From positions 1 through 16,698 of IMG/VR virus record IMGVR_UViG_3300014527_000045: 16,698 nt of DNA. One strand, written 5' to 3'. The translations under genes and the position numbers were made by a program. Each line of letters starts with the position of its first letter. Position 1 is the stretch's first letter. This document shows positions 1-13,726 of the stretch, in pieces. Under the pieces are notes generated by a model that worked only from the letters and a program-made list of their open reading frames with translations, searched no databases and was not told where the DNA came from. This DNA is from a virus. Taxonomy: Duplodnaviria > Heunggongvirae > Uroviricota > Caudoviricetes.

Positions 1-789
1 GGGACCGGCAAGTTTAACAAGGGGGGCAACGAAGCCGACTTAAACCCTAACGTCGCCAACCGCAACAAAGGCCCGCGCCGTCAGCCGGAAAAGAATGTTT
101 TCACCGATGAACAGATTGAGAAGCTGGAAGAAATCTTCCATTCCTCCATGTTCAACTACCAGCGCCACTGGTGGGAAGCCGGAAAAACCAACCGCATCCG
201 CAACCTGCTGAAGTCACGCCAGATCGGCGCGACCTTCTATTTTGCCCGTGAAGCCCTGATTGACGCCCTGCTAACCGGACGTAACCAGATTTTCCTTTCC
301 GCCAGTAAGGCACAGGCCCACGTCTTTAAACAGTACATCATCGACTTCGCCAAAGAAGTGGAGGTGGAGCTGAAAGGCGATCCGATGGTGCTTCCCAACG
401 GGGCCACTCTTTACTTCCTCGGCACCAATGCCCGCACGGCCCAGAGTTACCACGGCAACCTGTATCTGGATGAATATTTCTGGATACCGAAATTCCAGGA
501 GCTGCGCAAAGTGGCTTCCGGTATGGCTATTCACAAAAAATGGCGACAAACCTATTTTTCCACGCCATCCAGCCTGACCCACAGTGCTTATCCGTTCTGG
601 TCCGGTGCGCTGTTCAACCGTGGACGCAACAAAGCCGACAAGGTGGACATCGACCTGTCCCATAGCAATCTGGCCCCCGGCCTGCTGTGCGCAGACGGGC
701 AATACCGCCAGATAGTCACCGTGGAAGATGCGGTGCGCGGCGGCTGTAACGCATGGAGTACAGCCCGGACGAATACCAGAACCTGCTGA
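1..789 (+). CDS. Phage terminase large (ATPase) subunit, P2 gpP-like, upstream segment. The frame is open from base 1, so the gene starts upstream of the window; this frame stops at 787-789
   Basis: Frame 1 is open from position 1 ([18 protein letters not shown]...), so the listed ORF at 148 is internal. The position immediately upstream of the portal gene and the size match the P2 gpP terminase. The assignment is from memory of P2 gene order, not a search. Confidence 0.75.
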
Positions 790-1463: not shown

Positions 1464-2497
1464 TGGGAAAGAGTAAAAAAAAACGCGCTGCGGCGACGAA
1501 CCAGATCCAGCATAAAAGCCAAGCTTCAGCCGAAGCATTCAGCTTCGGTGATCCCATTCCAGTACTTGACCGCCGCGAACTGCTGGACTATGTGGAATGC
1601 GTACAGACAGATCGCTGGTATGAGCCTCCCGTCAGCTTTGACGGACTGGCGCGCACCTTCCGCGCTGCCGTGCATCACAGTTCACCAATTGCAGTGAAAT
1701 GCAACATTCTGACCAGCACCTACATCCCTCACCCGCTTCTCAGCCAGCAGGCTTTTTCGCGTTTTGTGCTGGACTATCTGGTATTTGGTAACGCCTACTT
1801 GGAGAAACGCACGAACCGATTCGGTGAAGTTATCGCCCTTGAGCCTGCGCTGGCAAAATACACCCGACGCGGGTTAGACCTGGATACCTACTGGTTTGTA
1901 CAATACGGTATGACAACCCAGCCGTATCAGTTCGCGAAAGGCAGCATTTTTCATCTGATGGAACCGGACATCAACCAGGAGATCTACGGCCTGCCCGGTT
2001 ATCTTTCTGCCATTCCGTCAGCCCTGCTCAACGAGTCCGCCACGCTGTTCCGCCGCAAGTATTACATTAACGGCAGTCATGCAGGCTTCATCATGTATAT
2101 GACTGACGCCGCGCAGAACCAGGAGGATGTGAACAACCTCCGCAACGCGATGAAAAGCGCCAAAGGACCGGGCAACTTCCGTAACTTGTTTATGTACTCG
2201 CCTAACGGCAAAAAGGACGGGCTTCAGATCATCCCGTTGTCAGAAGTTGCAGCGAAGGATGAATTTCTGAATATCAAGAACGTGAGCCGGGACCGGGACG
2301 CCATGATGGCGGCACACCGTGTGCCGCCGCAAATGATGGGGATTATGCCGAATAATGTTGGGGGGTTTGGGGATGTGGAGAAAGCTAGTAAGGTTTTTGT
2401 GACAAATGAATTAGTACCTCTACAAAAAAAAATCCATGAATTTAATCAGTGGATAGGGATGCATATTATCAATTTCTCAGAATATAATATAGATTAA
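1463..2497 (+). CDS. Phage portal (capsid portal) protein, P2 gpQ-like
   Basis: ATG at 1463 gives [14 protein letters not shown]..., 344 aa, the length I recall for P2 gpQ. The ORF track starts 3 nt earlier at a TTG. It is coupled to the terminase stop. The last ~30 codons are markedly AT-rich, unlike the rest of the gene. Confidence 0.85.
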   Translation: MGKSKKKRAAATNQIQHKSQASAEAFSFGDPIPVLDRRELLDYVECVQTDRWYEPPVSFDGLARTFRAAVHHSSPIAVKCNILTSTYIPHPLLSQQAFSRFVLDYLVFGNAYLEKRTNRFGEVIALEPALAKYTRRGLDLDTYWFVQYGMTTQPYQFAKGSIFHLMEPDINQEIYGLPGYLSAIPSALLNESATLFRRKYYINGSHAGFIMYMTDAAQNQEDVNNLRNAMKSAKGPGNFRNLFMYSPNGKKDGLQIIPLSEVAAKDEFLNIKNVSRDRDAMMAAHRVPPQMMGIMPNNVGGFGDVEKASKVFVTNELVPLQKKIHEFNQWIGMHIINFSEYNID

Positions 2498-2520: not shown

Positions 2521-3204
2521 TTAAGGCATTCTATTCTCAAAAACATGCTTTATCGCAGTGGTAAAGCATCTATCTTTTACATTCTTTTTAAACTCATCAA
2601 AGACCATAGATCTAACATCTTCAATTTCACATCCTGATTCAATAAGCTGAGATGCACATCCGACCAGTTCCTTTATTAATGTCATGCTTAATTCTATTGC
2701 ACGTCTTCTTTCCGCCTTGACTCCTCCTGAGGACGGGTTTAAGTTAAATACTCTTAACGTAACCTCTGCCATTTTGTGTTCTTTCTCATTCAAGCCTTCT
2801 CTAATATGAACATCACCATTTTCCAAAAAATGGAAAAAAACATCTGGATTTTGTCTATCAGCTTTAATTAAATCATCATCGTTATATTTTTGCTTATCCT
2901 TATAAAACCCACACCTTTGCGGCTCACCACATGAGCCAAACAAATTAGACCACTCGAAAGTTAAATTTTTGTAATAACTTTTCCTGTAAAAATGTTCAAT
3001 ATGCCTCTCAACTTTATTTTTGCCACCACTTTTATGATGCTCTATTTTTTTCTCGCAATAAGCACATAATTTACCTTGCATTTTTATTATTTCTTCCCAT
3101 ATTTCTTTTTTATCATTTGATGATAGGGAATTCCAATCATCCCTCCTATAGTCAAATTTATTAAGAACGGAAGGCCCTGGCATTTGCCTAGATAGATATT
3201 TCAT
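2521..3204 (-). CDS. HNH-family nuclease (PtuB-like effector of the retron/Septu-type cassette)
   Basis: 227 aa with CAYCEKK...HIEHF...W.NL..SCGEPQRC, an HNH-type Cys/His arrangement. Its start at 3204 overlaps the ATPase stop at 3201-3203. AT-rich. Confidence 0.75.
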   Translation of the reverse strand: MKYLSRQMPGPSVLNKFDYRRDDWNSLSSNDKKEIWEEIIKMQGKLCAYCEKKIEHHKSGGKNKVERHIEHFYRKSYYKNLTFEWSNLFGSCGEPQRCGFYKDKQKYNDDDLIKADRQNPDVFFHFLENGDVHIREGLNEKEHKMAEVTLRVFNLNPSSGGVKAERRRAIELSMTLIKELVGCASQLIESGCEIEDVRSMVFDEFKKNVKDRCFTTAIKHVFENRMP

Positions 3205-4586
3205 TTTACATCCTTACTTCCAGAAAAGTGCTGATTTATCTTATTTTTGAACTCCAAAACAGATATAAGATCATCACACTCTTGAACTAAAGGATGGTCT
3301 AATCCGAAATGTTTAATAACTTTTTCTCTTAACAAAAGAGCCTCGTCACTGCTATAACGATTAAGCTCAACCAATTTTTTATATTCTTCAAGCCAACCAT
3401 TTTCTTTAGTAGAGGGTATAGGATCAGTTCTCATTCCATATAAAAGTGCATCCTGATTACTAACACCTTTTATTTGATAGTCGGGGTGAGACACTATCAA
3501 ATCATTAACACCATCTACTTCCACTTCCTGTAGAATACGCACTGAACGAGAGCTAACAGTGGATAAAACCTGTGGGCTATGGGTAGTAATTACAAATTGA
3601 ACATTTGGGAATGTAGATGTCAAACGCTCAATAATTGTCTGTTGCCATTGCGGATGCAAATGCAAATCAATTTCATCAATTAAAACAATCCCATATCCCA
3701 ATAGAGGATTAGATAAATTTGGATTAAGTAAAATTAAACGTCGAGCCAAATCACCAACTAAAGTAAATATAGTTTTCTCACCTTGAGACAACTGTTGAAT
3801 ATCTAATTCAACCTCTCCTTTTTTAAGGATAATCTTATAATCATCATCACCATAAACAAGCTTAATCCACTGAAATTCAGGCAAGAACTTTAGAATGGTA
3901 TTTATAACACTATCATAAAGTGATACTGCATTATTAAACTTATGTTCTCCTGATTGCAGAGATTTCATGTAGTTCAATTTTTCTTTAAGCGAAAGCTCTA
4001 AACCTTTTATAACTGTTGAATCAATATTATCAATCGCAGATAGTTGAGTTAATGTTGCTTTCAAACTCTGAATATCTGAAAATAACGCATTGATTGTCGT
4101 TTGTGACTCACTCAATTTCTCTTGTGAAGCTCTGTTATGAAGAAATACAAGCCATTGAAAAAAATCGGTAAAATCATTTCTGTCAAACTCGATTTCATCA
4201 TACACATCGAATTTTGACCATACAGTTTTAGTTTTAGCATTTTTTCTTTTCCTATCAACCCCACCGCCTATATAAGAACGCGCAATAGAATAATATGCCA
4301 TCAAAGGCAAGCTTGCATTATCAACATATTTATTCACAAGTCTATAAATACTTGCAAGTTTTTTTATCTCCAACAATTCATTATTTCTAGAATAATATGC
4401 CCCCTCTTTCGCTTTAGTAATCAAAATACTGGTATTAAAGTCCTTGAGTTTTATATTTGCATCAATTGATGCATACTCAACATCAACAGAGTTATTAACT
4501 TCATGGCTTTTAATATAAGTACCAGGCTTACTCTCCTTTTCAATATTTGATCTCAACCAACTCAAAACAATTGCTATTGCATCCAA
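3201..4586 (-). CDS. ABC-type (AAA_15/AAA_21-like, PtuA/OLD-like) ATPase; the N-terminal Walker A region is disrupted upstream of the annotated start
   Basis: Contains LSQGEKT (ABC signature-like), IVLIDEIDLHLHPQWQ (Walker B/D-loop) and VITTHSP (H-loop). The ORF as listed starts at a TTG and lacks a P-loop. Immediately upstream, in the same frame, the DNA reads VYMILNG-TAA-DGFGKSTILDAI, a Walker A motif GxxxxGKST with the stop at the first x (minus-strand codon at 4611-4613). Confidence 0.8.
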   Translation of the reverse strand: MDAIAIVLSWLRSNIEKESKPGTYIKSHEVNNSVDVEYASIDANIKLKDFNTSILITKAKEGAYYSRNNELLEIKKLASIYRLVNKYVDNASLPLMAYYSIARSYIGGGVDRKRKNAKTKTVWSKFDVYDEIEFDRNDFTDFFQWLVFLHNRASQEKLSESQTTINALFSDIQSLKATLTQLSAIDNIDSTVIKGLELSLKEKLNYMKSLQSGEHKFNNAVSLYDSVINTILKFLPEFQWIKLVYGDDDYKIILKKGEVELDIQQLSQGEKTIFTLVGDLARRLILLNPNLSNPLLGYGIVLIDEIDLHLHPQWQQTIIERLTSTFPNVQFVITTHSPQVLSTVSSRSVRILQEVEVDGVNDLIVSHPDYQIKGVSNQDALLYGMRTDPIPSTKENGWLEEYKKLVELNRYSSDEALLLREKVIKHFGLDHPLVQECDDLISVLEFKNKINQHFSGSKDVK

Positions 4587-4596
4587 AATAGTGCTT

Positions 4597-4785
4597 TTAC
4601 CGAATCCGTCTTATCCGTTTAAAATCATGTATACCTATTTTATTTAAATGAAACTTACTCTCATTTAAAGTAGATATTAGCTTTTGAAGCTCAACAGACT
4701 CCTTCAAATAATCCTCGTTTATCACATGTGATTCCAACTCTAAAAAATCAACATAGCAAGTCTCTAAATTCATTTTATTTATCAT
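4597..4785 (-). CDS. Short ORF coupled to the RT stop; probably the displaced N-terminal segment of the ATPase gene rather than an independent protein
   Basis: Its ATG overlaps the RT stop (TAATG). The 62-aa product ends ...KFHLNKIGIHDFKRIRRIR, which resembles the N-terminal strand of ABC ATPases, but it is in a different frame from the Walker A segment and overlaps it on the DNA. Confidence 0.4.
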   Translation of the reverse strand: MINKMNLETCYVDFLELESHVINEDYLKESVELQKLISTLNESKFHLNKIGIHDFKRIRRIR

Positions 4786-5720
4786 TATTTGTTTCCTTCC
4801 ATCAGGAACTTAGTTATTAACTCACAACCATATTTTTTTTGTAACCTTAATAAAAAATCACCCTCCAAATAATTTGCAAACGCAATCATCCCTTTGGTTT
4901 TATTTATTTCTTCGGAAGATAAGAGTCCCAAAGAATATTTATGAATCTTTGCAAACAGCATCCTTTTACGATCGCGACCAATTGATAAATTGCCCTGAGG
5001 TGTAAGTGTTACACCAGTCACGTGCCGATTATGAGCCATCGATGTAAAAATTGTTTTAGATTCATTGATTGATAGACCGGGAACATGGAGCGACAACATT
5101 TTTTTTACCACCTTAGGAACCCTGCACAATATATCCTTAATATTAGTTGAAAAAGTTATATCATCTGCATACCTTGAATAAGTGATACCATTGTTACGGC
5201 ACCAATCATCAAGACTCTTGTCAAAGTCATACATAACAAAATTACTAATAAATGGTGAGCTTGGCGCCCCTACACTTAATATCAACGTTGTACTTCTCTT
5301 TTTTCCCGGACGCCAAAAAAGCAAATTACGTAGGGTGTTCTCATCAAATGAATCCAATTTCAGCCCTGTGTTCTCAAGTTTCGAGAAAAATATATCAGGT
5401 TTAATTTTGTTAAAGAAGTTCTGAAAATCCATTTTAAGAATATAATTATTATCTTTATGCAACAATGCATTATCTTTAATACTTTTTTTATATTCATATG
5501 CCATTGCCTTATGATGAACAGGCAGCTTTGGCTGTAGCAAAGATACTATAAATCTCTGTACGTTTTTTAGTTCCTTTGTCGGCTGAGCTATCACCCGAAA
5601 ACCTGCGCCACGTTTAGGAATATAATAAACTTTATATTTTTTGGGGGCCTCATTTAAAAGTAATTGGAAAGCTAATCTATTATAATTAAACTTACTGATA
5701 ATTTTAGAAGTTAGTTGCAT
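4785..5720 (-). CDS. Retron-type reverse transcriptase
   Basis: 311 aa with YYIPKRGAGFRVIAQP (RT motifs 1/2), ILKMDFQNFF (motif A), GAPSSP, YSRYADDITF (YxDD catalytic motif), SINESKT (motif D) and HNRHVTGVTL (the VTG triplet typical of retron RTs). It is collinear with my recollection of the Ec86 RT. AGAGGGG lies 7 nt upstream of the ATG. Confidence 0.9.
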   Translation of the reverse strand: MQLTSKIISKFNYNRLAFQLLLNEAPKKYKVYYIPKRGAGFRVIAQPTKELKNVQRFIVSLLQPKLPVHHKAMAYEYKKSIKDNALLHKDNNYILKMDFQNFFNKIKPDIFFSKLENTGLKLDSFDENTLRNLLFWRPGKKRSTTLILSVGAPSSPFISNFVMYDFDKSLDDWCRNNGITYSRYADDITFSTNIKDILCRVPKVVKKMLSLHVPGLSINESKTIFTSMAHNRHVTGVTLTPQGNLSIGRDRKRMLFAKIHKYSLGLLSSEEINKTKGMIAFANYLEGDFLLRLQKKYGCELITKFLMEGNK

Positions 5721-5739
5721 ATAACCCCTCTTAAAACCA

Positions 5740-5950
5740 AAGCGCCATGCAACTTTACATAGCGCTTTGACTCTTCACTAAAGACAGCGAAAGACACAGA
5801 TTTCTCCTTCGCATATCTGCCCCGGGCAGGGATGCGAAGGAGAAATCTGTGTCTTTCGCAACCCTAAACCGGACAATAAATTTAAGCCTGGCTAATCACC
5901 CGGCTGGAACCAATGTTCCTACACTAAAGAGCGTAATGATTTTAATGAAC
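5740..5950 (-). ncRNA. Candidate retron msr/msd non-coding RNA region, including a long msd-like hairpin (5787-5859)
   Basis: Directly upstream of the RT on the same strand. Perfect 28-nt inverted repeat (5787-5814 pairs with 5832-5859) around a 17-nt, partly self-complementary loop. I could not find the a1/a2 inverted repeats by eye, so the boundaries are provisional. Confidence 0.45.
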
Positions 5951-5965
5951 AAATAGATATAAGGC

Positions 5966-5984
5966 AAGGCGCGCGCTCGTATCC
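5966..5984 (-). other. Putative cos (cohesive end) site of a P2/186-family phage
   Basis: The minus strand reads GGCGTGGCGGGGA at 5984-5972, matching the first 13 nt of the 19-nt 186/P2 cohesive end as I recall it (GGCGTGGCGGGGAAAGCAT / GGCGAGGCGGGGAAAGCAC). The downstream 6 nt diverge. Orientation and position (between the right-end genes and the portal 3' end) fit. Confidence 0.45.
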
Positions 5985-6033
5985 CCGCCACGCCTGCCCG
6001 CTTTATGTAGTGGTTTTCATGCACCTGCATGAT

Positions 6034-6063
6034 CTACGCAAAAGCCCGCCAGTTCTGGCGGGC
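6034..6063 (-). terminator. Putative intrinsic terminator of the tum/dinI transcript
   Basis: GC stem gcccgcc / ggcgggc (6044-6050 and 6057-6063) with a 6-nt loop, followed on the minus strand by TTTTG. Confidence 0.45.
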
Positions 6064-6198
6064 CTTAGCAAAAACGATCCTCAAACGATCATGCGATCTC
6101 ATGCGGCATAGACATGCACTACAGAGCTAACGCCTCGCAAGGGCTCGTTGTTCAACCTTGCTGACGCCAGAAACAAGTTCAGACGCCAGCAACGTTTC

Positions 6199-6432
6199 TT
6201 AATGCAGCCAGCTGTCGTCTTCCCACACCTTCTGCATAATTTTCATCACTTGTTTTCTTTCTTCGTCCAGTTGCAGTCCGGTCAGTTCCACACCGTTAGA
6301 GCTACCTTTGCGGATACGAATTACCGTTTTGGGATACAGGGGGCGCAGATTGCGGTAAAGCTCGGATTCAAGGGCGTCCAGTGTAGACTGGCTAATCTTC
6401 TGCTCTTTATCGATCATTATTTCAATGCGCAT
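6199..6432 (-). CDS. dinI: DinI-family protein (phage 186 orf97-like)
   Basis: From the internal ATG at 6432 the product is MRIEIMIDKEQ...KVWEDDSWLH (77 aa), collinear with E. coli DinI as I recall it (MRIEVTIAKT...ETWESADDWF). GAGGTGA lies upstream of this ATG. The ORF track extends further upstream, but that overlaps the preceding gene. Confidence 0.75.
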   Translation of the reverse strand: MRIEIMIDKEQKISQSTLDALESELYRNLRPLYPKTVIRIRKGSSNGVELTGLQLDEERKQVMKIMQKVWEDDSWLH

Positions 6433-6442
6433 AAAAGTCACC

Positions 6443-6631
6443 TCAGCTGATGACATCCATTGAGCGGTTGTATTCGTGGGTTCTGATTTTTGCCATGAGT
6501 TCATCTGTCAGTTCAGAAACCCACTGCAGGGCCAGCCCCTTCTCTTCATCACTACACTCACTAGCCGCTACAAGCTTAAGAAAAAAATCAATGCGCTGGA
6601 GCTTCAAAGACTCCAAAAAATAGTCCTGCAT
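6443..6631 (-). CDS. tum: Tum-like SOS-inducible antirepressor candidate (small protein upstream of dinI-like gene)
   Basis: 62-aa ORF with AGGAGG 5 nt before the ATG, immediately downstream of LexA-box-like sequence and followed by the DinI-like gene. This mirrors the phage 186 SOS operon (tum, then orf97) located between gene A and cos. The protein itself is not recognised by sequence. Confidence 0.5.
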   Translation of the reverse strand: MQDYFLESLKLQRIDFFLKLVAASECSDEEKGLALQWVSELTDELMAKIRTHEYNRSMDVIS

Positions 6632-6656
6632 CTTTCCTCCTATGACACCAAAGCAA

Positions 6657-6715
6657 TACTGTATATATAACCACTGTTTATGTTTACAGTATATAATAAT
6701 CTTACTGATGTAAAA
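6657..6715 (-). promoter_or_regulatory. LexA (SOS) box overlapping a candidate promoter for the tum/dinI operon
   Basis: Perfect CTGT-N8-ACAG at 6674-6689 (cactgtttatgtttacagta), plus an adjacent half-site CTGTATATATAA at 6659-6670. On the minus strand, TTTACA (-35-like) and TATACT (-10-like) are spaced so that the box overlaps the -10. Confidence 0.6.
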
Positions 6716-6783
6716 CGTTTTTTTACGCTCATCAGCCTGATATGCCTGGTATTATTAAGAGCACGAATTGTTAACCCGCGTAA

Positions 6784-9156
6784 TTAATACAGGTTTCGCC
6801 ACTTATCATCTTCCTGCAAACGCTGGTTCCGATAGAAGATACGTAGGCCTGCTCCTGACGGAATACTGCCGCCGCGAAGCAGTAAATCGACCTCTTTCTC
6901 GCTGCCATCAAATCCCCTGGACTTCAGTTCATACACGAGCTGCAGTCGCTGATGGTCTGTAATTCGCTGTTTGTAGTCTTTACGCCGTTTCGGTTTCACC
7001 AGGCGTAACCTTGCTGCCAGTTCCCGGCGCTCTTTTTTGCTCATACTGTGCAGGTAATCGTGCAACTCCTTGTCATCCATGCGGGTGATATCCGTTCTGG
7101 TATCTCCATCAGTTGATTTGTCTTTCCCTTGTTGGTACAAATTTTCAGCAAGGGGACAGTTATTGCCACGAGTCCAAGGGGCGCAAGCGCCCTGGTCGGC
7201 TGCCGCCTCCTGAACGTCAACGGCTTTACGAACCATTTTCCACTTCACTGCATGAGTGCAGATCTTACCCTCTGCAATGGGTGACCAGATGCCATAAATA
7301 CGAATACCGTGATCGCCATAGGCGGTCGGCTCTTCGTTAATTTCATAAGCTGTTCTGATAAGGTGATATTTGCGGGGAACCAGCACGCCGCCCTGCTTCA
7401 TGATGTAGGTGGCAAAACAGCCAGCATCAGCAGCAGCCAGGATGGCATCAAGGCGTGGGTTATCCAGTACCGGCGCACCTGCTTTTTTGTCCCCCTGCTG
7501 CCTTGCCGCCTGACCAGCCAGCAATCGCAGTTCACGGTAAGCCTGACGCCCCGGAATACCAAAGAAGCGGAATTGCTGAACACGATGCAGAGACGCCCAG
7601 GCATTAACGTATTCAGCGTTATCACGCAGGGATTTACCCGTTTCCTTGCTGATCTCACCAGCCAGACCACGCCCGTCAATGTTCTTACTGATGTATTTCG
7701 CGATGTAGCTTGTTGGCGTACCTTTGCGCGGGTTTATCAGCTCAGACTTAAAGCGTGGTCCCGTGTTATTACCCAGCTCCTCGCGGTCTTCACGAATGGC
7801 AAACTTACGCAGTAATGCAGTGATGGCGCGGCGGTCTTTTTTGCGCATAAAACACAACAGGTGCCAGTGAACTGTACCGTCATGATGCGGCTCAGCCACC
7901 CGCACGCCATACCAGCGCAATCCGGCTTTGTGCATCGCCTTACGAAATGCAGCAAACATGCCGACCAAATAATCACTGCTTTGTCTTACTGTCGCGTTGG
8001 TCCAGGTCGGGTTTGGCCTGCCGTTATTTAGCGTGGAATGGAAACGTGACGGACAGGTGATGGTGTAGAAAACGGCGCAGTCACCACGCATTTCCGCGAT
8101 AAGCTCCAGGCCTTTAACACAGGCCATCATCTCGTTGCGGCGATGCGCCGGGTTGCTGCTGCTGGCGTTTACCACATCCTCCATGTTCAGCGTGTCGCCG
8201 TCTTCGTTCACCAGTTCATGAGAACGGAAAAACTCCAGCGACTTACGGCGCTGCTCACGTTTATGCATCACGGCTTCATAGCTGACATAGGGAGATGCTT
8301 TTTTGCTGACCAGGCAGACAGCACGCAACTGCTCTTCCCGCCATTCGCAACGCATCTTCCATAATTTCCGATACCACCAGTCGGCGCACAGCATACGCGC
8401 CAGCGAACCCGGAATGAGTTCATAAGGCACAGGTTTGCGGCGGTTTCTTTTCCGGCGGAGTTGCTCAAACGCAGGCGGTATGACATCCAGTCGCAGGGTT
8501 TCTGCAGCCACCTTTTCCCATGTCTTGCGGATTTCTTCTGGCTTAACATCATCGGTGGCATACAAATCACCACAAGCTACATCAAGGCACATACTCATAT
8601 GCGCAGCTACCAGGGTGGACAGGCGTTTCACCTGATCCTGACTCATTTCAGGCAGAATCAGCAGGCCGTCCAGCCCTTCATGGCTTGCCATAAAGCGAAA
8701 AGAAGTGGATAGCTGACTGTCGCGTACATGCTCCAGCCGTTCCAGACATGGCTTAATCGTCTCACGCAAATAGCGGGAATAAGCCTTTGGCCTGCCAAGG
8801 CTGCTGAAGTATTCAATACGTTGCATCAGCGGCTTGCTGATATGGGAAGGCTGGGCATTGACGTCCGCCAGAATGACCATATCTGGATTAAAACGCTGCT
8901 GCTCATGCGCCAGCTTTGCCCGACTAATGAGCTTATCCTGCTCCATTTCGCGCTGGACAGGATCACGGGATTCATTAAAGAAATAACGCTCCCAGACCTG
9001 ATCACTCAGTACCTCGCGGCGCAGGTGTTCCTGCTCGTTATCGGCAGCGTACAGAGCGATCAGGTTTGAAAGCGCAGAAACTGAAGATTGCTCTTCTGTC
9101 TCTACGTAAGGATTGATTGCTTTTTTCTCAGCATTCCAGGAATAGCTGTAGTTCAT
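6784..9156 (-). CDS. Replication initiation protein, P2 gpA-like (rolling-circle nicking enzyme)
   Basis: 790-aa ORF whose size and position (between the early region and the right-end/cos region) match gene A of P2/186 phages. Its start overlaps the stop of the upstream gene. The plus-strand ORFs inside it are antisense artefacts. Confidence 0.85.
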
Positions 9157-9986
9157 TACGCAATCTCCAGTTCGAGCTGTGAAGGCTGCAAACCATTCGA
9201 CAGCCAGTCAGAAACTGAAGGTGGGCGAACAGCTTCAATTGCACCTTTTAAAATTGCGCAACGGTTTTTCAGAATGACAGCTTTCAGCTCCTTTTCCGTC
9301 AGATTGCGCGAATACTCAGCCTCCTGAATAGCCCGCGTAAGCTCAGGATATTTGCTATTAAATTTGGGGACATTGCAGGCAAGATTTGTACTGTCGGCAG
9401 TCGCCAGTGGGTAATTTCCCAACACACGACCGTCAAGCATGCGCAAACCATGAACAGCTGTTTTGAAATTGTGTCGGCAATAAATTGCTTCAAAAGCGTC
9501 CTGCATACGACGATGCCAGTGCGCAGTTCTAATAGCCGCATATTCACCAGACGATCCAAAGCAGACACGAGGCCATTCACGACATAGCTCGATAAGCCGA
9601 TCGATTGACTCGTGCAGATGCCAGACGGGAGTTGCCTTCCCGTAGAACATTTTCGGAACTTCGTTTATCAGGGCATCATTGTCACGTTCACCTCCGTCCA
9701 CAACATCAGGAATGACAAAAAAAGCGACCTTAGGATGGTGGTAATAGTTCAGGAGCCATTTATAAAAATCACTCCAGTTAATTTTTAGCCCACGCCCCCA
9801 TGCAGAAAATGCGCCGTTATCAATGCCAACGACCTGAGCGTGCTGAATGGACGCCGCAATCTGATCTGGTCGTACATAGGAGACGAAAGCACCAGCTCCG
9901 CTCACCGCAATACGATGAACGTCGCCAGCACTTCCCCAGACAGGCGTCCCATGGAAATGATGAATTCCGTGGTGCATTTCTTTCAC
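9156..9986 (-). CDS. Conserved phage protein of unknown function, co-transcribed with Dam
   Basis: 276-aa ORF overlapping Dam at its 5' end (9983-9986) and gene A at its 3' end (9156). I do not recognise the family. Confidence 0.6.
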
Positions 9987-10837
9987 ACTTGCACCCCGAA
10001 AATAACAGTAGAGTCACGTCCCCTACTAAAATCGGCACTAAACCAATTAGCAGATTTAGTGGCAATCATCTCTGTTGCAAATTTTCCCTCCCCCGCTGCA
10101 ACGCCGATGCTGCGTTTCGCCCTGATGTAGTGGTGAGTGAAATTACGATAAAGAGACCGGGTCAAAGACGTGTCACTGTTAGAAACAATGACCGGATGTC
10201 CTTCAGATGCTCGATGTTCAAGAACGGATGCCAGGTGATACTGGTCATCTTCAGTGAAACCATCAGTGTGATAGCCGGAAAACGTACCGTCATACGGCGG
10301 ATCGCAATACACCACATCCCCCGCCTTCAACATCGCCAGCGTTTCATCAAAGCTGGCGCAGAAAAACGTTGCCCGCTGGGCTTTTTCTGCAAATGCGCGA
10401 ATTTCTTTTTCAGGGAAATACGGATTTTTATAATTACCGTAGGGAATGTTGAAATGCCCGCTCTTGTTATAGCGGCATAAACCACGGTAACCGTGACGAT
10501 TGAGATACAGAAAATATACCGCTTTCATGAAATCAGTAATTTCAGTGGAGTAATTAAACTCCTGCCTTATGTTGTAATAAGCCACCTCCCTGTTTGCGAT
10601 CTCAAATAAAACTCTGGCGCGAGATATAAACGATTCACAATCAGCGGCAACCTTTTTATAGAGGTTGATTAAATCAGGATTAATATCCGCAACCAGATAG
10701 CTGGGGTAATCCGTCTCCATCATCACAGCACAGGAACCCGCGAAAGGTTCAACCAGTCGCGGGCCAGCAGGAAGGTGTTTTTTCAGTTCGGACATTATGG
10801 CGGTTTTATTTCCCGCCCATTTCAGGATAGTGCTCAT
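9983..10837 (-). CDS. dam: DNA adenine methyltransferase (Dam family, N6-adenine)
   Basis: From the internal ATG at 10837: [11 protein letters not shown]... (the Dam N-terminal motif) and [11 protein letters not shown] (DPPY catalytic motif). This start overlaps the upstream ORF stop (ATGA). Confidence 0.85.
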
Positions 10838-11061
10838 ACAGCACCTCCGTTGTAATGTTTGCCTTTCAGCTCTGCGATTTCCTGACAGGTAATGCAAAGC
10901 TGCACACCCGGAATGGCACGGCGGCGTGCTGGCGGAATTGGCGCTTCACACTCAATGCAAAGCACGCGAGACACGCCCGGTGTTTTGGCACGGGCAGCAC
11001 GGATATGGCGCTGGCGTTCTTCTTCAACGCGCTGCTGTACGAGATCCATTGCATCAGCCAT
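10834..11061 (-). CDS. TraR/DksA-family C4 zinc-finger protein
   Basis: 75 aa with CIECEAPIP...CITCQ, two CxxC pairs as in phage TraR/DksA-like proteins. Confidence 0.65.
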   Translation of the reverse strand: MADAMDLVQQRVEEERQRHIRAARAKTPGVSRVLCIECEAPIPPARRRAIPGVQLCITCQEIAELKGKHYNGGAV

Positions 11062-11300
11062 TAGTGGATCTCCTGCGCTTCGTTCTGGATTGCTTCAGCA
11101 GTCACACGCAGCAGTTCTGCCGCTTCCACGTGGTTTAGCTGACGGGATGAGATATGACACGCCAGGCTATCAAGGCGAGCTGCCATTGCTTCAGCCCTTG
11201 CCCGGCGTTCTTCCAGACGAGCCTCTGTCAGTAAAATATTAAGCCCTGCATCATCCGGTCCGGTTTTAGTCGTGAGGATTTCAATATTACGCATAATCAA
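11061..11300 (-). CDS. Hypothetical phage early protein
   Basis: 79-aa ORF in the same-strand operon, with a coupled stop/start overlap at 11061. Confidence 0.5.
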   Translation of the reverse strand: MIMRNIEILTTKTGPDDAGLNILLTEARLEERRARAEAMAARLDSLACHISSRQLNHVEAAELLRVTAEAIQNEAQEIH

Positions 11301-11361
11301 TTCTCCTGAATTTAGATAAAGGGATACCCGGCGGGTTTACGCCATTAATTTCATTAGTTGG

Positions 11362-11703
11362 TTAATTCGGCATGGTTAGCCGTCTGGGAAATAAGCTCAC
11401 CACTGCACGAAAATGATTCATTGCTTTAATCAACTCCCGCTTTTCGTCAGTGGTCAGCTCATTGATGCTGATGCTATGACGTTCAGCCGGAATTTTTGCC
11501 ATAAAGAATATGGCTGCCAGTGCTCGTTTATTTTGTTCGTTATTGATATCCCGTGGATCACGCATATCTTTAATAAACCGCTCAAGCTCTGACTCAATAT
11601 TCAGGCCAAAAACTTTCGCCCTTAATTCCGCTATGTGATTAAGTCCATTCAGGCGTTCACCGGGGCTTAATGGAACAGTCGCCGCAGCGCCTTCAATAGC
11701 CAT
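11362..11703 (-). CDS. Hypothetical phage early protein
   Basis: 113-aa ORF on the same strand as the early operon. Confidence 0.55.
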   Translation of the reverse strand: MAIEGAAATVPLSPGERLNGLNHIAELRAKVFGLNIESELERFIKDMRDPRDINNEQNKRALAAIFFMAKIPAERHSISINELTTDEKRELIKAMNHFRAVVSLFPRRLTMPN

Positions 11704-11867
11704 TTGTTCCCCCGTTTTTTCGTAGATAGTTCTGCCAGCAATTCATCTTGTGAACGGCACGGATGCCAGCGTTTACCATCCTCACCCATGATCCAGCCGT
11801 GACCGTAGTGCATTGCCGGGCTTTGTTTTACCAGCAGCGATGCAAATGATGGTTCTTTCGTCAGCAT
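11667..11867 (-). CDS. Hypothetical small phage early protein (start uncertain)
   Basis: The 76-aa ORF overlaps both neighbours; an internal start (MLTKEP...) at 11867 removes the overlap with cII. Confidence 0.35.
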   Translation of the reverse strand: MLTKEPSFASLLVKQSPAMHYGHGWIMGEDGKRWHPCRSQDELLAELSTKKRGNKWLLKALRRLFH

Positions 11868-11874
11868 AAGCACC

Positions 11875-12390
11875 TCACAGCAAACCGAATGAAGCACCGA
11901 GGCCAGTCACGGTATCAACTGCACTCGCCATCGCAGGATTAGCCTGTAAACGGGCCTGCAATGAAACAGCAGCCAGCGCCATCAGTCGTGTTACAGAGTT
12001 AATGCTGCTGATAGCATCACGACGACCGGCACTAGTTTTTACATCACCAGATACCGCACCTGCTGCAACACGTCCGATCTCTGCAGTTGCGCTCATGACG
12101 TAATGCGGCAGTTTCTCTTTTGCAACCTCATTAATCGGTACACATGGCAGGCAGTGAATCTGTGCCAGAAAACCATCTACCAGCGTTGAATCTTCAGTCA
12201 GATCGGTAAGCAGCCAGATTTCTGGTGCGGTTAATAAATGAGGCTGAGCTGGGTTCAGCTTGTTCCGCAGAATCTGCACATTCATGCCTGCACGTTCTGC
12301 CAGTTGCACCAGATTGTGGCGCAGTGCAAATGCACGACAGGCTTCATCAAAATGTGGATGTTTGGAAACTTGGTAATCAAACATGGTCAA
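11875..12390 (-). CDS. cII: CII-like transcriptional activator (phage 186 CII family)
   Basis: 171 aa, M(T)[20 protein letters not shown]..., closely resembling my recollection of 186 CII (about 169 aa) and in the same position after apl. Confidence 0.7.
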
Positions 12391-12416
12391 TGCCTCTGAT
12401 GTATTTCAGAATCGAA

Positions 12417-12638
12417 CTAATTAAGGTTTAGATTGCATTCTGAAAGCGCATCAACGGTCATGGCTGCTATGTTGATCATCACTTTTTCGCGTTTTTTATC
12501 TTTACGCAAACGGTGACGGATAAGGCGTCCATCAGCCAACATGTCATTGATGGTATCGATGGACAGTCCTGTCAGCTCGCTATAGCGTTCAATAGTCACA
12601 TGAGGCGTGGTAAGAGTGATTGAAATGTTAGGTCTCAT
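12417..12638 (-). CDS. apl: Apl/Cox-like excisionase and repressor of the lysogenic promoter
   Basis: 73-aa first gene of the leftward early operon, divergent from the repressor gene, with HTH-like [25 protein letters not shown]. Confidence 0.6.
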
Positions 12639-12757
12639 GATGCAACATTCCTCGTTTAATGATGATTAATCAGGACGAATACGGATCGTTTGTATTTTGT
12701 GAACACCATAAACATACGATCGCATCATGAAATCGTCAAGATAAAAGTTCACTTGGA
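12639..12757. promoter_or_regulatory. Lysis/lysogeny switch region between apl and cI (expected face-to-face pR/pL promoters and operators)
   Basis: 119-bp AT-rich gap between the divergent apl and cI starts. Promoter hexamers were not confidently placed. Confidence 0.4.
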
Positions 12758-13333
12758 GTGACCATGAATTTGGAGAAAGGCGGACGAGGCGCTATAGAGC
12801 GCATGGTAGAAGCTTATGGATTCAAAACTCGACAGGCGTTGTGCGATCATTTAGGAATCTCTAAAAGTACACTCGCTACACGCTACATGCGTGACTCATT
12901 CCCAGCAGAATGGGTAATCCAGTGCGCCCTTGAAACGGGCACCTCGCTTAATTGGCTCACAACTGGACATGGTTCAAAGCAAACTTCAGGTAATACAAAT
13001 ACGATGGAAGTTGCTAAGTATGTATTATCTGATGGTGCCTTGCGTGAAGACGGTTTTTATATTTTTGATAAGGGATTTCTACCCTCTACGTTTAAAAAAC
13101 CTTTTGTCATCACAGATAACAATTCTGAATTTATTTGTGATAAAGAATTTGATGATATACGTGATGGTAAATGGGTAATAAGTATTGATGGCGAAATAAC
13201 AATCCGCGACATTACTCGTTTACCCGGTGGAAGAATCTTCGTTGAAGGTGGAAACAGATCCTTCGAGTGCAAGATAGAAGATGTTGAAATAATTGGAAAA
13301 ATTATAAGTTTAACAATTAAGTACGTTAGGTAA
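12758..13333 (+). CDS. cI: Immunity repressor CI (phage 186 CI family)
   Basis: 191 aa; the N-terminus ...AYGFKTRQALCDHLGISKSTLATRYMRDSFPAEWVIQCALETG... matches the 186 CI HTH region as recalled (186 CI is about 192 aa). Confidence 0.75.
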   Translation: MTMNLEKGGRGAIERMVEAYGFKTRQALCDHLGISKSTLATRYMRDSFPAEWVIQCALETGTSLNWLTTGHGSKQTSGNTNTMEVAKYVLSDGALREDGFYIFDKGFLPSTFKKPFVITDNNSEFICDKEFDDIRDGKWVISIDGEITIRDITRLPGGRIFVEGGNRSFECKIEDVEIIGKIISLTIKYVR

Positions 13334-13348
13334 TACCGGGAGTAAACT

Positions 13349-13540
13349 ATGCTTGGTAAGGTATTTTTTGTGGTTTTATCATGCTCTTTGTTATTAAACC
13401 CACTAACTACCTATGCTAAAAATTATCCTTGTTCTGGGAAAAAGGGAGGTGTCTCTCACTGTACCTCCGATGGAAAGTTCGTTTGCAATGATGGAACCAT
13501 TAGTAAATCAAAAAAAATCTGTACTAAAAACTCGCGATAA
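13349..13540 (+). CDS. Small secreted cysteine-rich protein (possible moron)
   Basis: 63 aa with a signal-peptide-like N-terminus ([23 protein letters not shown]) and several Cys in the mature part. AT-rich, lying between cI and int. Confidence 0.5.
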
Positions 13541-13726
13541 TTTTTGCTTTTATATCTGCGCCTAATATAACAATGAGCCGCAGGCTAACCGCAAAAGTCA
13601 CATACTCACATAGCAAAAAATAGCCAACTTCATTATGGCTTCAGTGAGATGTATGGTCGCAAGATTTCATACATTGACACTGGTTATACATACAGTAAAA
13701 ATGCTCTCTATTGGAGGGCATTTTTT

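What the first reader, a model, noticed from the sequence alone, without database searches (positions are those of the whole stretch)
2521..5960. Retron-type RT + ABC ATPase + HNH nuclease cassette in the P2 old/tin-equivalent hotspot
Four same-strand ORFs with overlapping stop/start junctions form one operon: a retron-like RT (YADD, VTG, GAPSSP), a short coupled ORF, an ABC-type ATPase and an HNH nuclease, with a long msd-like hairpin upstream. The locus lies between a cos-like sequence and the portal gene 3' end, the variable position that in P2 carries old/tin and in related phages other anti-phage systems. The gene content matches the retron RT + PtuA/PtuB (Septu-like) effector arrangement, so this is a strong candidate phage-borne defence system. 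I cannot tell without a search whether it is a known retron (Ec78/Ec83 class) or a new variant.
Basis: partly seen in the sequence, partly recalled or inferred. Interest (0 to 1): 0.85.

Follow-up and report, generated by a model that had tools for sequence, protein, structure and literature searches.

The report
Known type I-A retron, ATPase gene broken
This is a copy of an already characterised anti-phage retron (the E. coli FORC 82 type I-A retron, with solved structures) carried by a P2/186-like prophage, and in this copy a 50-base deletion breaks the ATPase gene, so it is a known system that is probably disarmed.

Summary
The cassette is real and lies on the minus strand. It has a promoter-like site, an msr-msd ncRNA (about 5932-5770), RT (5720-4785), ptuA and ptuB (3204-2521). 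It fills the gap between a cos-like site (5994-5976) and the portal gene stop (2497) of a P2/186-like prophage.

It is not new. The RT and PtuB are 100% identical to PDB 9N69 chains E and F. The msr-msd core is base-for-base identical to the E. coli FORC 82 type I-A retron. That retron was studied by George et al. 2025 (defence against T3 and T5, ~90-nt msDNA, phage flap nucleases as trigger, HNH cleavage of tRNA-Ser).

It is the first 58 codons of ptuA. A 50-bp deletion (junction 4610|4609) removes codons 60-75 and shifts the frame. A stop codon then sits directly before the Walker A codons, and the 461-aa ORF starts at Leu84.

All 14 other copies I examined have an intact 544-aa PtuA. The nearest sibling is 100% identical over 9,112 bp.

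The published ATPase mutants lose defence, so this copy is predicted to make msDNA but not to defend. I could not decide whether the deletion is biological or an assembly error. The same window also has a 22-bp terminase deletion. Novelty: already known. Interest: low.

The parts
5976..5994 (-). cos-like cohesive-end sequence GGCGTGGCGGGGATACGAG. It marks the upstream limit of the cargo.
   Evidence: It matches 15/19 bases of the phage 186 cos and 14/19 of the P2 cos. Flanking homology runs AGGTGCAT...AAGCGGGC upstream and GCGCGC(C) downstream. Homology to P2/186 ends at about 5968.
5939..5967 (-). sigma-70-like promoter, TTGCCT-17 nt-TAAAAT, placed 6-7 nt upstream of the predicted msr 5' end
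   Evidence: Consensus scan. The match is only 9/12, and the scan finds no more sites than chance across the region. The assignment rests on its position relative to msr and is an inference.
5868..5932 (-). msr part of the retron ncRNA. The a2 stem arm is 5932-5925, and the unpaired G at 5924 is the predicted branching (priming) guanosine.
   Evidence: Rfam msr RF00170 scores 45.9 bits (gathering 52), E = 5.4e-07. In the fold, GCUCUUUA pairs with UGAAGAGU and the next G is unpaired. The paper gives the priming G as G8 and the preceding A as A7. That fits a 5' end at 5931.
5777..5866 (-). msd, the template for a ~90-nt msDNA, with a long hairpin (arms 5787-5822 and 5824-5859)
   Evidence: Inverted repeat of 36 nt, 94% complementary. 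DNA fold -41.1 kcal/mol, z = -13.1. Rfam STnc400 RF02058 scores 71.4 bits (gathering 80) over 5866-5729. The paper reports a ~90-nt msDNA. The core 5931-5770 is identical to E. coli FORC 82.
5770..5777 (-). [quoted passage not shown]
   Evidence: MFE and centroid folds.
5738..5769 (-). hairpin followed by UUUU, lying between msd and the RT ribosome-binding site. It looks like a terminator or attenuator.
   Evidence: Inverted repeat I2, stem in the fold, and it lies inside the STnc400 match. Function is inferred.
4785..5720 (-). retron reverse transcriptase, 311 aa, intact
   Evidence: 100% identical to PDB 9N69 chain E. PADLOC RT_I-A 4.9e-131. NCBIfam retron_St85_RT 321 bits against a cut-off of 235. 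Pfam RVT_1.
4597..4785 (-). 5' fragment of ptuA: 58 native codons, then RRIR and a stop.
   Evidence: PADLOC PtuA profile positions 10-69. The translation is identical to residues 1-59 of the intact 544-aa PtuA of sibling loci.
4609..4610 (-). junction of a 50-bp deletion. The missing sequence is AGAACTACAGATTTCTTTAGAAGATGATTTGACTGTTTTTGTCGGGGATA. It covers ptuA codons 60-75 plus 2 nt, so the frame shifts.
   Evidence: Alignments to FORC 82 and to L005. All 14 other copies carry the 50 nt.
4590..4607 (-). Walker A codons (GFGKST), still present but untranslatable. An in-frame TAA sits one codon (GAC) upstream of them, and there is no start codon in between.
   Evidence: Three-frame translation.
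3201..4586 (-). 3' part of ptuA. The ORF runs from TTG = Leu84 to the native stop. It retains Walker B D387, the signature LSQGE and Q454.
   Evidence: It matches residues 92-552 of the tagged PDB chain 9N69_A with 2 substitutions. PADLOC PtuA profile 92-532. Residue numbering checked.
2521..3204 (-). ptuB HNH nuclease, 227 aa, intact (catalytic H71 present)
   Evidence: 100% identical to PDB 9N69 chain F. PADLOC PtuB 1.5e-117. NCBIfam PtuB 160.7 bits against a cut-off of 150. H71 and G44 checked.

Best explanation
The locus is a copy of the E. coli FORC 82-type type I-A retron. It is carried as AT-rich cargo between the cos site and the portal gene of a P2/186-like prophage.

How the intact system works (published):
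- The RT uses the msr-msd RNA to make a ~90-nt msDNA hairpin.
- That msDNA, together with the RT, scaffolds four PtuA SMC-like ATPases, which hold one PtuB HNH nuclease in check.
- Phage flap or 5'-3' exonucleases (T3, T5 D15) degrade the msDNA. This releases PtuA-PtuB activity, and PtuB cleaves tRNA-Ser and arrests translation.

This copy, from the sequence: a 50-bp deletion removes ptuA codons 60-75 and shifts the frame. No product can contain the Walker A P-loop.

Inferred consequence: this copy should still make msDNA, because the promoter-like site, ncRNA and RT are unchanged. It should be neither toxic nor protective. It is a disarmed, pseudogenised allele of a known defence system.
For: Identity:
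- RT and PtuB are 100% identical to 9N69 chains E and F. The PtuA 3' ORF equals chain A residues 92-552 with 2 substitutions.
- 9N69/9N6B/9N6C are the FORC 82 retron structures.
- The FORC 82 chromosome matches at 99.8% but is 50 bp longer.
- The msr-msd core 5931-5770 is identical to FORC 82.

Family: PADLOC RT_I-A, PtuA and PtuB; NCBIfam.

Lesion:
-.
- PADLOC splits the PtuA profile into positions 10-69 and 92-532.
- All 14 other copies encode 544-aa PtuA with GFGKST.

Functional inference, from the paper:
- ATPase D387A and HNH H71A abolish defence.
- An RT active-site mutant is unclonable unless the ATPase or HNH is mutated. One such suppressor is V73A, and V73 lies inside the segment deleted here.
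- Frameshifts in the ATPase arose repeatedly under that selection.
- Trigger and tRNA-Ser mechanism.

Context: terminase, portal, DinI, gpA, Dam, CI and integrase; cos; hotspot definition.
Against: - No experiment was done on this allele.
- The deletion junction has no exact match in three public collections. None of the window-specific products is on record: the 62-aa ORF, the 461-aa ORF and the 344-aa portal. So the lesion is not independently confirmed.
- The window differs from a sibling that is otherwise 100% identical (9,112 bp, 0 differences) only by three indels, one adjacent SNP and four mismatches in its first 24 bases. That indel-only pattern is unusual for natural divergence and could reflect assembly problems.
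- Rfam msr and STnc400 matches are below their gathering scores.
- Pseudogenes of defence genes are reported as rare in P2 hotspots (PMC13586616).
Confidence: 0.85

Rival explanations
1. The retron in the source organism is intact and functional. On this reading the 50-bp gap, the 22-bp terminase gap and the 6-bp portal insertion are assembly or sequencing artefacts of the record the window comes from.
For: - All differences from the nearest sibling (L005) are indels or lie next to an indel, plus a cluster of G/C mismatches in window 1-24. That cluster looks like a contig-end error.
- There are zero substitutions in the other 9,112 bp.
- No other public copy has any of these lesions.
Against: Clean 22- and 50-bp deletions in unique, non-repetitive coding sequence are not typical short-read or long-read error types (my own knowledge). 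A 6-bp tandem duplication (GTCCCG) is a normal slippage mutation. ATPase frameshifts are exactly what selection against retron toxicity produced in the laboratory. Defective P2-like prophages are common, and the FORC 82 copy itself sits in a degraded prophage.
Confidence: 0.3
2. The split ptuA is still functional, either through a frameshifting or reinitiating ribosome or as a two-piece or N-terminally truncated ATPase. The cassette would then remain an active defence system.
For: - The 3' ORF keeps the Walker B motif, the signature motif, the msDNA-binding insertions and the C-terminal claw that binds PtuB.
- The TTG at 4586 lies 10 nt after the stop of the 5' fragment.
Against: - Sixteen codons are physically missing. 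The Walker A lysine K80 lies after a stop codon with no start codon before it.
- I see no slippery sequence or Shine-Dalgarno motif before the TTG.
- Single substitutions in the ATPase (D387A, Q454K, and V73A together with G44S in the HNH) already abolish defence.
- Three of the four nucleotide-binding domains bind ATP in the complex.
Confidence: 0.03
3. The RT is not a retron RT but a group II intron, DGR, Abi or UG RT. This is the refutation the first reader proposed.
For: None beyond generic RVT_1 homology.
Against: - PADLOC's best hits are all retron RT models, with RT_I-A at 4.9e-131.
- NCBIfam group II RT/maturase scores 65.6 bits against a cut-off of 300. AbiA, Drt2 and Drt3a are also far below their cut-offs.
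- The protein is identical to a solved retron RT bound to its msDNA.
Confidence: 0.01

Closest known systems
Type I-A retron of E. coli FORC 82 (George et al. 2025, Nat Commun 16:8459, PMC12475279; PDB 9N69, 9N6B, 9N6C)
   Same: RT and PtuB are 100% identical. The msr-msd core is identical. PtuA is identical where present, apart from 2 substitutions (E155G and I156V in native numbering, from ORF positions 72 and 73). Gene order and junctions are the same. Both sit next to cos and the portal gene in a P2-like prophage.
   Different: The window lacks 50 bp of ptuA (codons 60-75 plus a frameshift). There are also 7 point differences over 3.7 kb. Two of these flank the ncRNA core, at 5933 and 5746. 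The FORC 82 prophage is more degraded downstream of the portal gene.
Retron Ec78 / Retron-Eco7 (type I-A; PDB 9L7P, 9KJX, 9VHE; PMC12819146, PMC12673091)
   Same: Same architecture: ncRNA, RT, PtuA, PtuB. The effector logic is the same, with PtuAB as a tRNA-targeting toxin held in check by RT-msDNA.
   Different: - The RT is only 50% identical.
- PtuA scores 211 bits against 1007 for the FORC 82 protein, and PtuB 123 against 526.
- The intact FORC 82-type PtuA scores 472 bits, below NCBIfam's Ec78 PtuA cut-off of 500.
- The tRNA target reported is tRNA-Tyr for Ec78 and tRNA-Ser for FORC 82. T5 tRNAs and ORF75 evade Ec78 but not FORC 82.
Retron Ec83 / Retron-Eco4 (type I-A; PDB 9E8Z)
   Same: Same three-gene plus ncRNA architecture. 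The RT is homologous at 269 bits and the ATPase at 195 bits.
   Different: It is more distant than Ec78 on all compared proteins. It is a different retron.
Stand-alone Septu (PtuA/PtuB, PDB 8EE4/8EE7/8EEA)
   Same: The ATPase and HNH nuclease pair is homologous (PtuA 117 bits, PtuB 26 bits).
   Different: Septu has no RT or ncRNA. The retron versions have C-terminal extensions and are regulated by msDNA.
P2 old/tin accessory locus, in the gpA-gpQ cos-proximal hotspot (Rousset et al. 2022, PMC9122126)
   Same: Same hotspot as defined in that paper. Both are AT-rich anti-phage cargo next to cos.
   Different: There is no sequence or mechanistic relation. old and tin lie between orf91 and cosR. 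This cassette lies on the other side of cos, replacing the cosL-to-portal spacer.

Membership tests
Type I-A retron (Mestre et al. 2020 classification; FORC 82 / Ec78 / Ec83 group) | Retron-clade reverse transcriptase with the YADD catalytic motif and the retron VTG motif | tested here: met
   PADLOC RT_I-A 4.9e-131, full length. NCBIfam retron_St85_RT 321 bits against a cut-off of 235. YADD at residue 184 and VTG at 234. 100% identical to 9N69_E.
Type I-A retron | msr-msd ncRNA immediately upstream of the RT: a closing a1/a2 stem, an unpaired branching G, and a long msd hairpin | tested here: met
   The fold shows an 8-bp a2/a1 stem (5932-5925 with 5777-5770), unpaired G5924, two small msr hairpins and a long msd hairpin, z = -9.95. 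Rfam msr (45.9 bits, gathering 52) and STnc400 (71.4, gathering 80) are significant by E-value but below gathering. The core sequence is identical to the FORC 82 ncRNA region, which yields msDNA experimentally.
Type I-A retron | Intact PtuA SMC/ABC-type ATPase with Walker A, Walker B and signature motifs | tested here: not met
   The gene is homologous (PADLOC PtuA 3e-166) but split. Profile positions 70-91 are missing, a 50-bp deletion shifts the frame, and Walker A cannot be translated. Siblings encode an intact 544-aa protein. This copy is therefore a degenerate member of the family.
Type I-A retron | PtuB HNH nuclease downstream of PtuA and translationally coupled to it | tested here: met
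   PADLOC PtuB 1.5e-117. NCBIfam PtuB 160.7 bits against a cut-off of 150. Catalytic H71 is present and there is an ATGA overlap with the ptuA stop. 100% identical to 9N69_F.
Type I-A retron | Production of msDNA and phage defence | not testable with these tools
   Both were shown for the intact FORC 82 allele (T3 and T5 defence, ~90-nt msDNA). Neither has been tested for the deleted allele. I predict msDNA yes and defence no.
Retron Ec78 (Retron-Eco7) specifically | Equivalog-level similarity of the RT, PtuA and PtuB to the Ec78 proteins | tested here: not met
   The RT is 50% identical to 9L7P_E. Intact sibling PtuA scores 472 bits against a cut-off of 500, and the window fragment scores 402. 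PtuB just passes (160.7 against 150). This is a related but distinct type I-A retron.
Stand-alone Septu | A PtuA-PtuB pair without an associated RT or ncRNA | tested here: not met
   The RT and msr-msd lie directly upstream in the same transcription unit.
P2-like cos-proximal defence hotspot (gpA-gpQ) | Variable cargo between the replication gene A and the portal gene Q, adjacent to cos | tested here: met
   gpA is at 9156-6784, cos at 5994-5976, the cargo at about 5967-2498, and the portal stop at 2497. Definition from PMC9122126 and PMC13586616.

The most novel reading that the evidence does not exclude
The 50-bp ptuA deletion is a genuine natural suppressor allele, selected because the intact retron was autotoxic in this host. 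One possible cause is msDNA degradation by a resident nuclease. The result would be an effector-less retron that still makes abundant msDNA. That would be a wild counterpart of the ATPase frameshifts that arose in the laboratory when retron toxicity was unmasked. It would also be one of the defence-gene pseudogenes that are reported as rare in P2 hotspots.
Probability: 0.12. Interest if true: 0.3.

Novelty: already known. Interest (0 to 1): 0.12.

Why it matters
The system's composition, structure, trigger and effector activity were published in 2025 for proteins identical to those encoded here, so the finding does not add a new kind of system. Three practical points follow.

1. Automated defence-system calls on this sequence would report a complete type I-A retron, although the ATPase is broken. 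The 62-aa ORF is a warning sign of this.
2. The copy documents the prophage context of the FORC 82 retron: the portal side of cos in P2/186-like phages. The structural paper's main text does not discuss this context.
3. If the deletion is real, it is a natural example of a disarmed retron. It could serve as a ready-made negative-control allele.

Tried and rejected
- Rfam at gathering thresholds found nothing in the window. Only the permissive search showed msr and STnc400, both below gathering.
- Pfam found no domain in PtuB or in the 62-aa ORF. The PADLOC and NCBIfam profiles were needed.
- I looked for the deletion allele elsewhere and found none. The exact junction gave 0 hits in genome contigs, metagenome contigs and viral contigs. 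As a positive control, the intact junction gave 4 viral contigs and 1 metagenome contig, but 0 in the one-genome-per-species set.
- Exact-product look-ups of the 62-aa ORF, the 461-aa ORF and the 344-aa portal variant found nothing on record.
- No phage record in INPHARED carries the cassette. Only the ~130-bp region upstream of the cassette (cos and its gpA-side flank) matches.
- The paper's supplementary files, where I hoped to find the exact ncRNA boundaries, are not held. The 5' end at 5931/5932 is therefore inferred from the fold and from the paper's A7/G8 numbering.
- I considered repeat-mediated slippage as the origin of the deletion. AACGGAT occurs on both sides, but the junction keeps both copies, so it is not a simple recombination between them.
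- I considered a rescue start codon upstream of Walker A. There is none.
- I did not run structure prediction, fold search or the large protein searches. Identical solved structures made them unnecessary.


Full report
**What is in the sequence**

The finding's interval holds four minus-strand ORFs:
- 5720-4785, 311 aa
- 4785-4597, 62 aa
- 4586-3201, 461 aa, TTG start
- 3204-2521, 227 aa

The interval is about 33% GC, against about 50% in the flanks. The 311-aa protein has RVT_1 and the motifs GAPSSP (residue 151), YADD (184) and VTG (234).

Upstream lies a 36-nt-arm inverted repeat, 5787-5822/5824-5859. The 165-nt RNA from 5932 to 5768 folds with these features (z = -9.95, no shuffle as good):
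- an 8-bp closing stem (5932-5925 with 5777-5770)
- an unpaired G at 5924
- two small hairpins
- the long hairpin

The complementary 90-nt DNA folds at -41.1 kcal/mol, z = -13.1. Two points do not. Only two of the three gene junctions overlap, and the "short coupled ORF" is not a gene.

**Family assignment**

- PADLOC profiles give RT_I-A 4.9e-131, PtuA 3e-166 and PtuB 1.5e-117.
- NCBIfam puts the RT above the retron St85-family cut-off (321 against 235) and PtuB above the Ec78 PtuB cut-off (160.7 against 150). Group II intron, Abi and Drt models are far below theirs.
- Rfam finds nothing at gathering thresholds.
- In a permissive search, Rfam places msr (RF00170, 45.9 bits, gathering 52, E = 5e-07) at 5932-5868. 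It places the Salmonella sRNA STnc400 (RF02058, 71.4 bits, gathering 80, E = 8e-14) at 5866-5729, which covers the msd hairpin and a second hairpin.

**It is an already characterised system**

- The RT is 100% identical over all 311 residues to PDB 9N69 chain E.
- The 227-aa protein is 100% identical to chain F.
- The 461-aa ORF equals residues 92-552 of chain A, with two substitutions.
- 9N69, 9N6B and 9N6C are the cryo-EM structures of the type I-A retron of E. coli FORC 82 (George et al. 2025, PMC12475279).
- The FORC 82 chromosome matches the interval at 99.8%.
- The msr-msd core 5931-5770 is identical base for base.

The paper reports the following:
- The cloned operon defends against T3 and T5 but not T4 or T7.
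- ATPase D387A and HNH H71A abolish defence.
- RT YADD-to-YAAA mutants are unclonable unless the ATPase or HNH is mutated.
- The complex contains a ~90-nt msDNA and a ~40-nt RNA remnant, one RT, four ATPases and one HNH.
- The T3 exonuclease and the T5 and T7 flap nucleases degrade the msDNA and trigger HNH-dependent growth arrest.
- The nuclease depletes tRNA-Ser.

Residue numbering in the paper (ATPase V73, D387, Q454; HNH G44, H71) matches the proteins encoded here and in sibling loci.

The system is distinct from Ec78 and Ec83. The RT is 50% identical to the Ec78 RT. PtuA and PtuB score 211 and 123 bits against the Ec78 proteins, compared with 1007 and 526 against the FORC 82 proteins.

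**The lesion**

PADLOC aligns the 62-aa ORF to PtuA profile positions 10-69 and the 461-aa ORF to positions 92-532. Alignment with FORC 82 and with the nearest sibling L005 shows that the window lacks 50 bp between 4610 and 4609. The missing sequence is AGAACTACAGATTTCTTTAGAAGATGATTTGACTGTTTTTGTCGGGGATA.

- In the intact 544-aa PtuA, this segment encodes residues 60-75, just before and into the P-loop G74-DNGFGK80-S.
- The deletion is 16 codons plus 2 nt, so the upstream frame reads ...KRIR-RIR-stop.
- In the downstream frame, a TAA sits one codon (GAC) before the codons for GFGKST (4607-4590).
- The first start codon in that frame is the TTG for Leu84.
- No product can therefore contain the Walker A lysine. 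Sixteen residues are missing in any case, including V73, a site of a laboratory suppressor mutation.

All 14 other copies I could inspect carry the 50 nt. Of these, 13 were checked by translation and encode a 544-aa PtuA with GFGKST. The copies comprise:
- FORC 82
- seven further NCBI/ENA places from the exact-RT look-up
- four IMG/VR contigs
- one further metagenome contig

The same holds for the four complete E. coli genomes that carry the cassette.

**Consequence (inference)**

The promoter-like site (TTGCCT-17-TAAAAT, 5967-5939), the ncRNA and the RT are unchanged, so msDNA synthesis should persist. Point mutations in the ATPase already abolish defence, and ATPase frameshifts are what the authors recovered as suppressors of toxicity. 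A copy without the PtuA N-terminus and P-loop should therefore be neither toxic nor protective. PtuB translation is coupled to ptuA (ATGA overlap) and is probably reduced as well.

**Is the deletion biological?**

I could not decide.

L005 (ENA ERZ27238276, contig k111_6754) is 100.000% identical to the window over 4609-13720 (9,112 bp, no mismatch or gap). To the left of that stretch, the only differences are:
- the 50-bp deletion
- a 6-bp tandem duplication plus an adjacent SNP in the portal gene (2294-2301)
- a 22-bp frameshifting deletion in the terminase gene (751|750), which splits it into ORFs 148-789 (Terminase_6N) and 753-1463 (Terminase_6C)
- four mismatches in window bases 1-24

All of these are private to the window.

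The deleted junction is absent from three public collections, while the intact junction is found. The window-specific proteins are not on record.

An indel-only spectrum with end-of-sequence mismatches raises the possibility of assembly problems. Against that, clean 22- and 50-bp deletions are not typical sequencing errors. Two frameshifts in a prophage fit ordinary prophage decay, and loss of the ATPase is the expected route out of retron toxicity. I put roughly two to one on the deletion being real.

**Context**

The window is the early and packaging end of a P2/186-like prophage:
- terminase and portal on the plus strand
- DinI-like protein, a 62-aa ORF, gpA (790 aa), a 276-aa ORF, Dam methylase, Fil/CII-type genes and others on the minus strand
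- CI repressor and integrase on the plus strand
- host TetR and MFS genes beyond the integrase

A cos-like 19-mer, GGCGTGGCGGGGATACGAG (5994-5976, minus strand), matches the phage 186 cos at 15/19 and the P2 cos at 14/19. Conserved flanks run up to about 5968, where homology stops and the AT-rich cargo begins.

In P2 and 186, the ~170 bp between cosL and the portal stop hold only the tQ/tW terminator. Here that spacer is replaced by about 3.47 kb of retron. P2's old and tin lie on the other side of cos. The locus is therefore in the gpA-gpQ cos-proximal hotspot as defined by Rousset et al. 2022 and by the 2026 NAR survey, but on the portal side of cos. The 2026 survey reports that recognisable pseudogenes of defence genes are rare in P2-like hotspots (about 2% of pseudogenes). 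A broken ptuA would be one of those uncommon cases.

**Verdict**

The system is already known down to atomic structure. The "fourth ORF" is an artefact of a frameshifting deletion that most likely disarms this copy. Novelty: already known. Interest: low.

Noticed in passing
window 750-751 (ORFs 148-789 and 753-1463, + strand): The large terminase gene (gpP homologue) is split by a 22-bp frameshifting deletion. The 22 bp are present in all 6 comparable sibling prophages. The two ORFs carry Terminase_6N and Terminase_6C respectively. If the deletion is real, the prophage cannot package DNA.
   Followed up: partly
window 2294-2301 (portal gene, + strand): An in-frame 6-bp tandem duplication (GTCCCG on the minus strand) plus an adjacent substitution. 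It adds two residues to the portal protein. It is absent from 12 sibling copies, and the resulting 344-aa protein is not on record.
   Followed up: partly
window 1-24: Four mismatches (positions 1, 5, 21, 24) against four otherwise identical siblings. They produce a G-run. This looks like a contig-end or read-end error and suggests the window starts at an assembly edge.
   Followed up: partly
window 9156-9986 (- strand): A 276-aa ORF lies between the Dam methylase and gpA. It has no Pfam or PADLOC hit but a strong match to phrog_887, 'queuine tRNA-ribosyltransferase' (8.4e-96, profile positions 5-311 of 509). It is present in sibling L005 and absent from seven other siblings, which have an 804-aa gpA instead of 790 aa. 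It may be a DpdA-like DNA-modification or anti-restriction gene.
   Followed up: no
window 5738-5769 (- strand): A 15-bp-stem hairpin followed by UUUU lies between the end of the ncRNA and the RT ribosome-binding site. It falls inside the Rfam STnc400 match. The window has a G at 5746 where FORC 82 has A, turning a U-A pair into U-G. It may be an attenuator that sets the ncRNA:RT ratio.
   Followed up: no
L001 / L010 (E. coli FORC_082, NZ_CP026641.1 3,050,154-3,065,904): The published FORC 82 retron sits in a degraded P2-like prophage. The terminase is truncated to a 161-aa fragment. It is followed by a TIR-domain gene and then baseplate genes, with the capsid module missing.
   Followed up: no
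L004 14078-15301: Another sibling prophage carrying the same retron also holds a SIR2_2-domain gene, inserted among the tail genes. This is a second defence-like cargo position in the same phage family.
   Followed up: no
window 2545-2569 (+ strand): A terminator-like hairpin with a T-run lies on the plus strand, inside the 3' end of ptuB and 48 bp after the portal stop. It could serve as the late-operon terminator, now that the native tQ/tW region has been replaced. The scan found no more such sites than chance.
   Followed up: no
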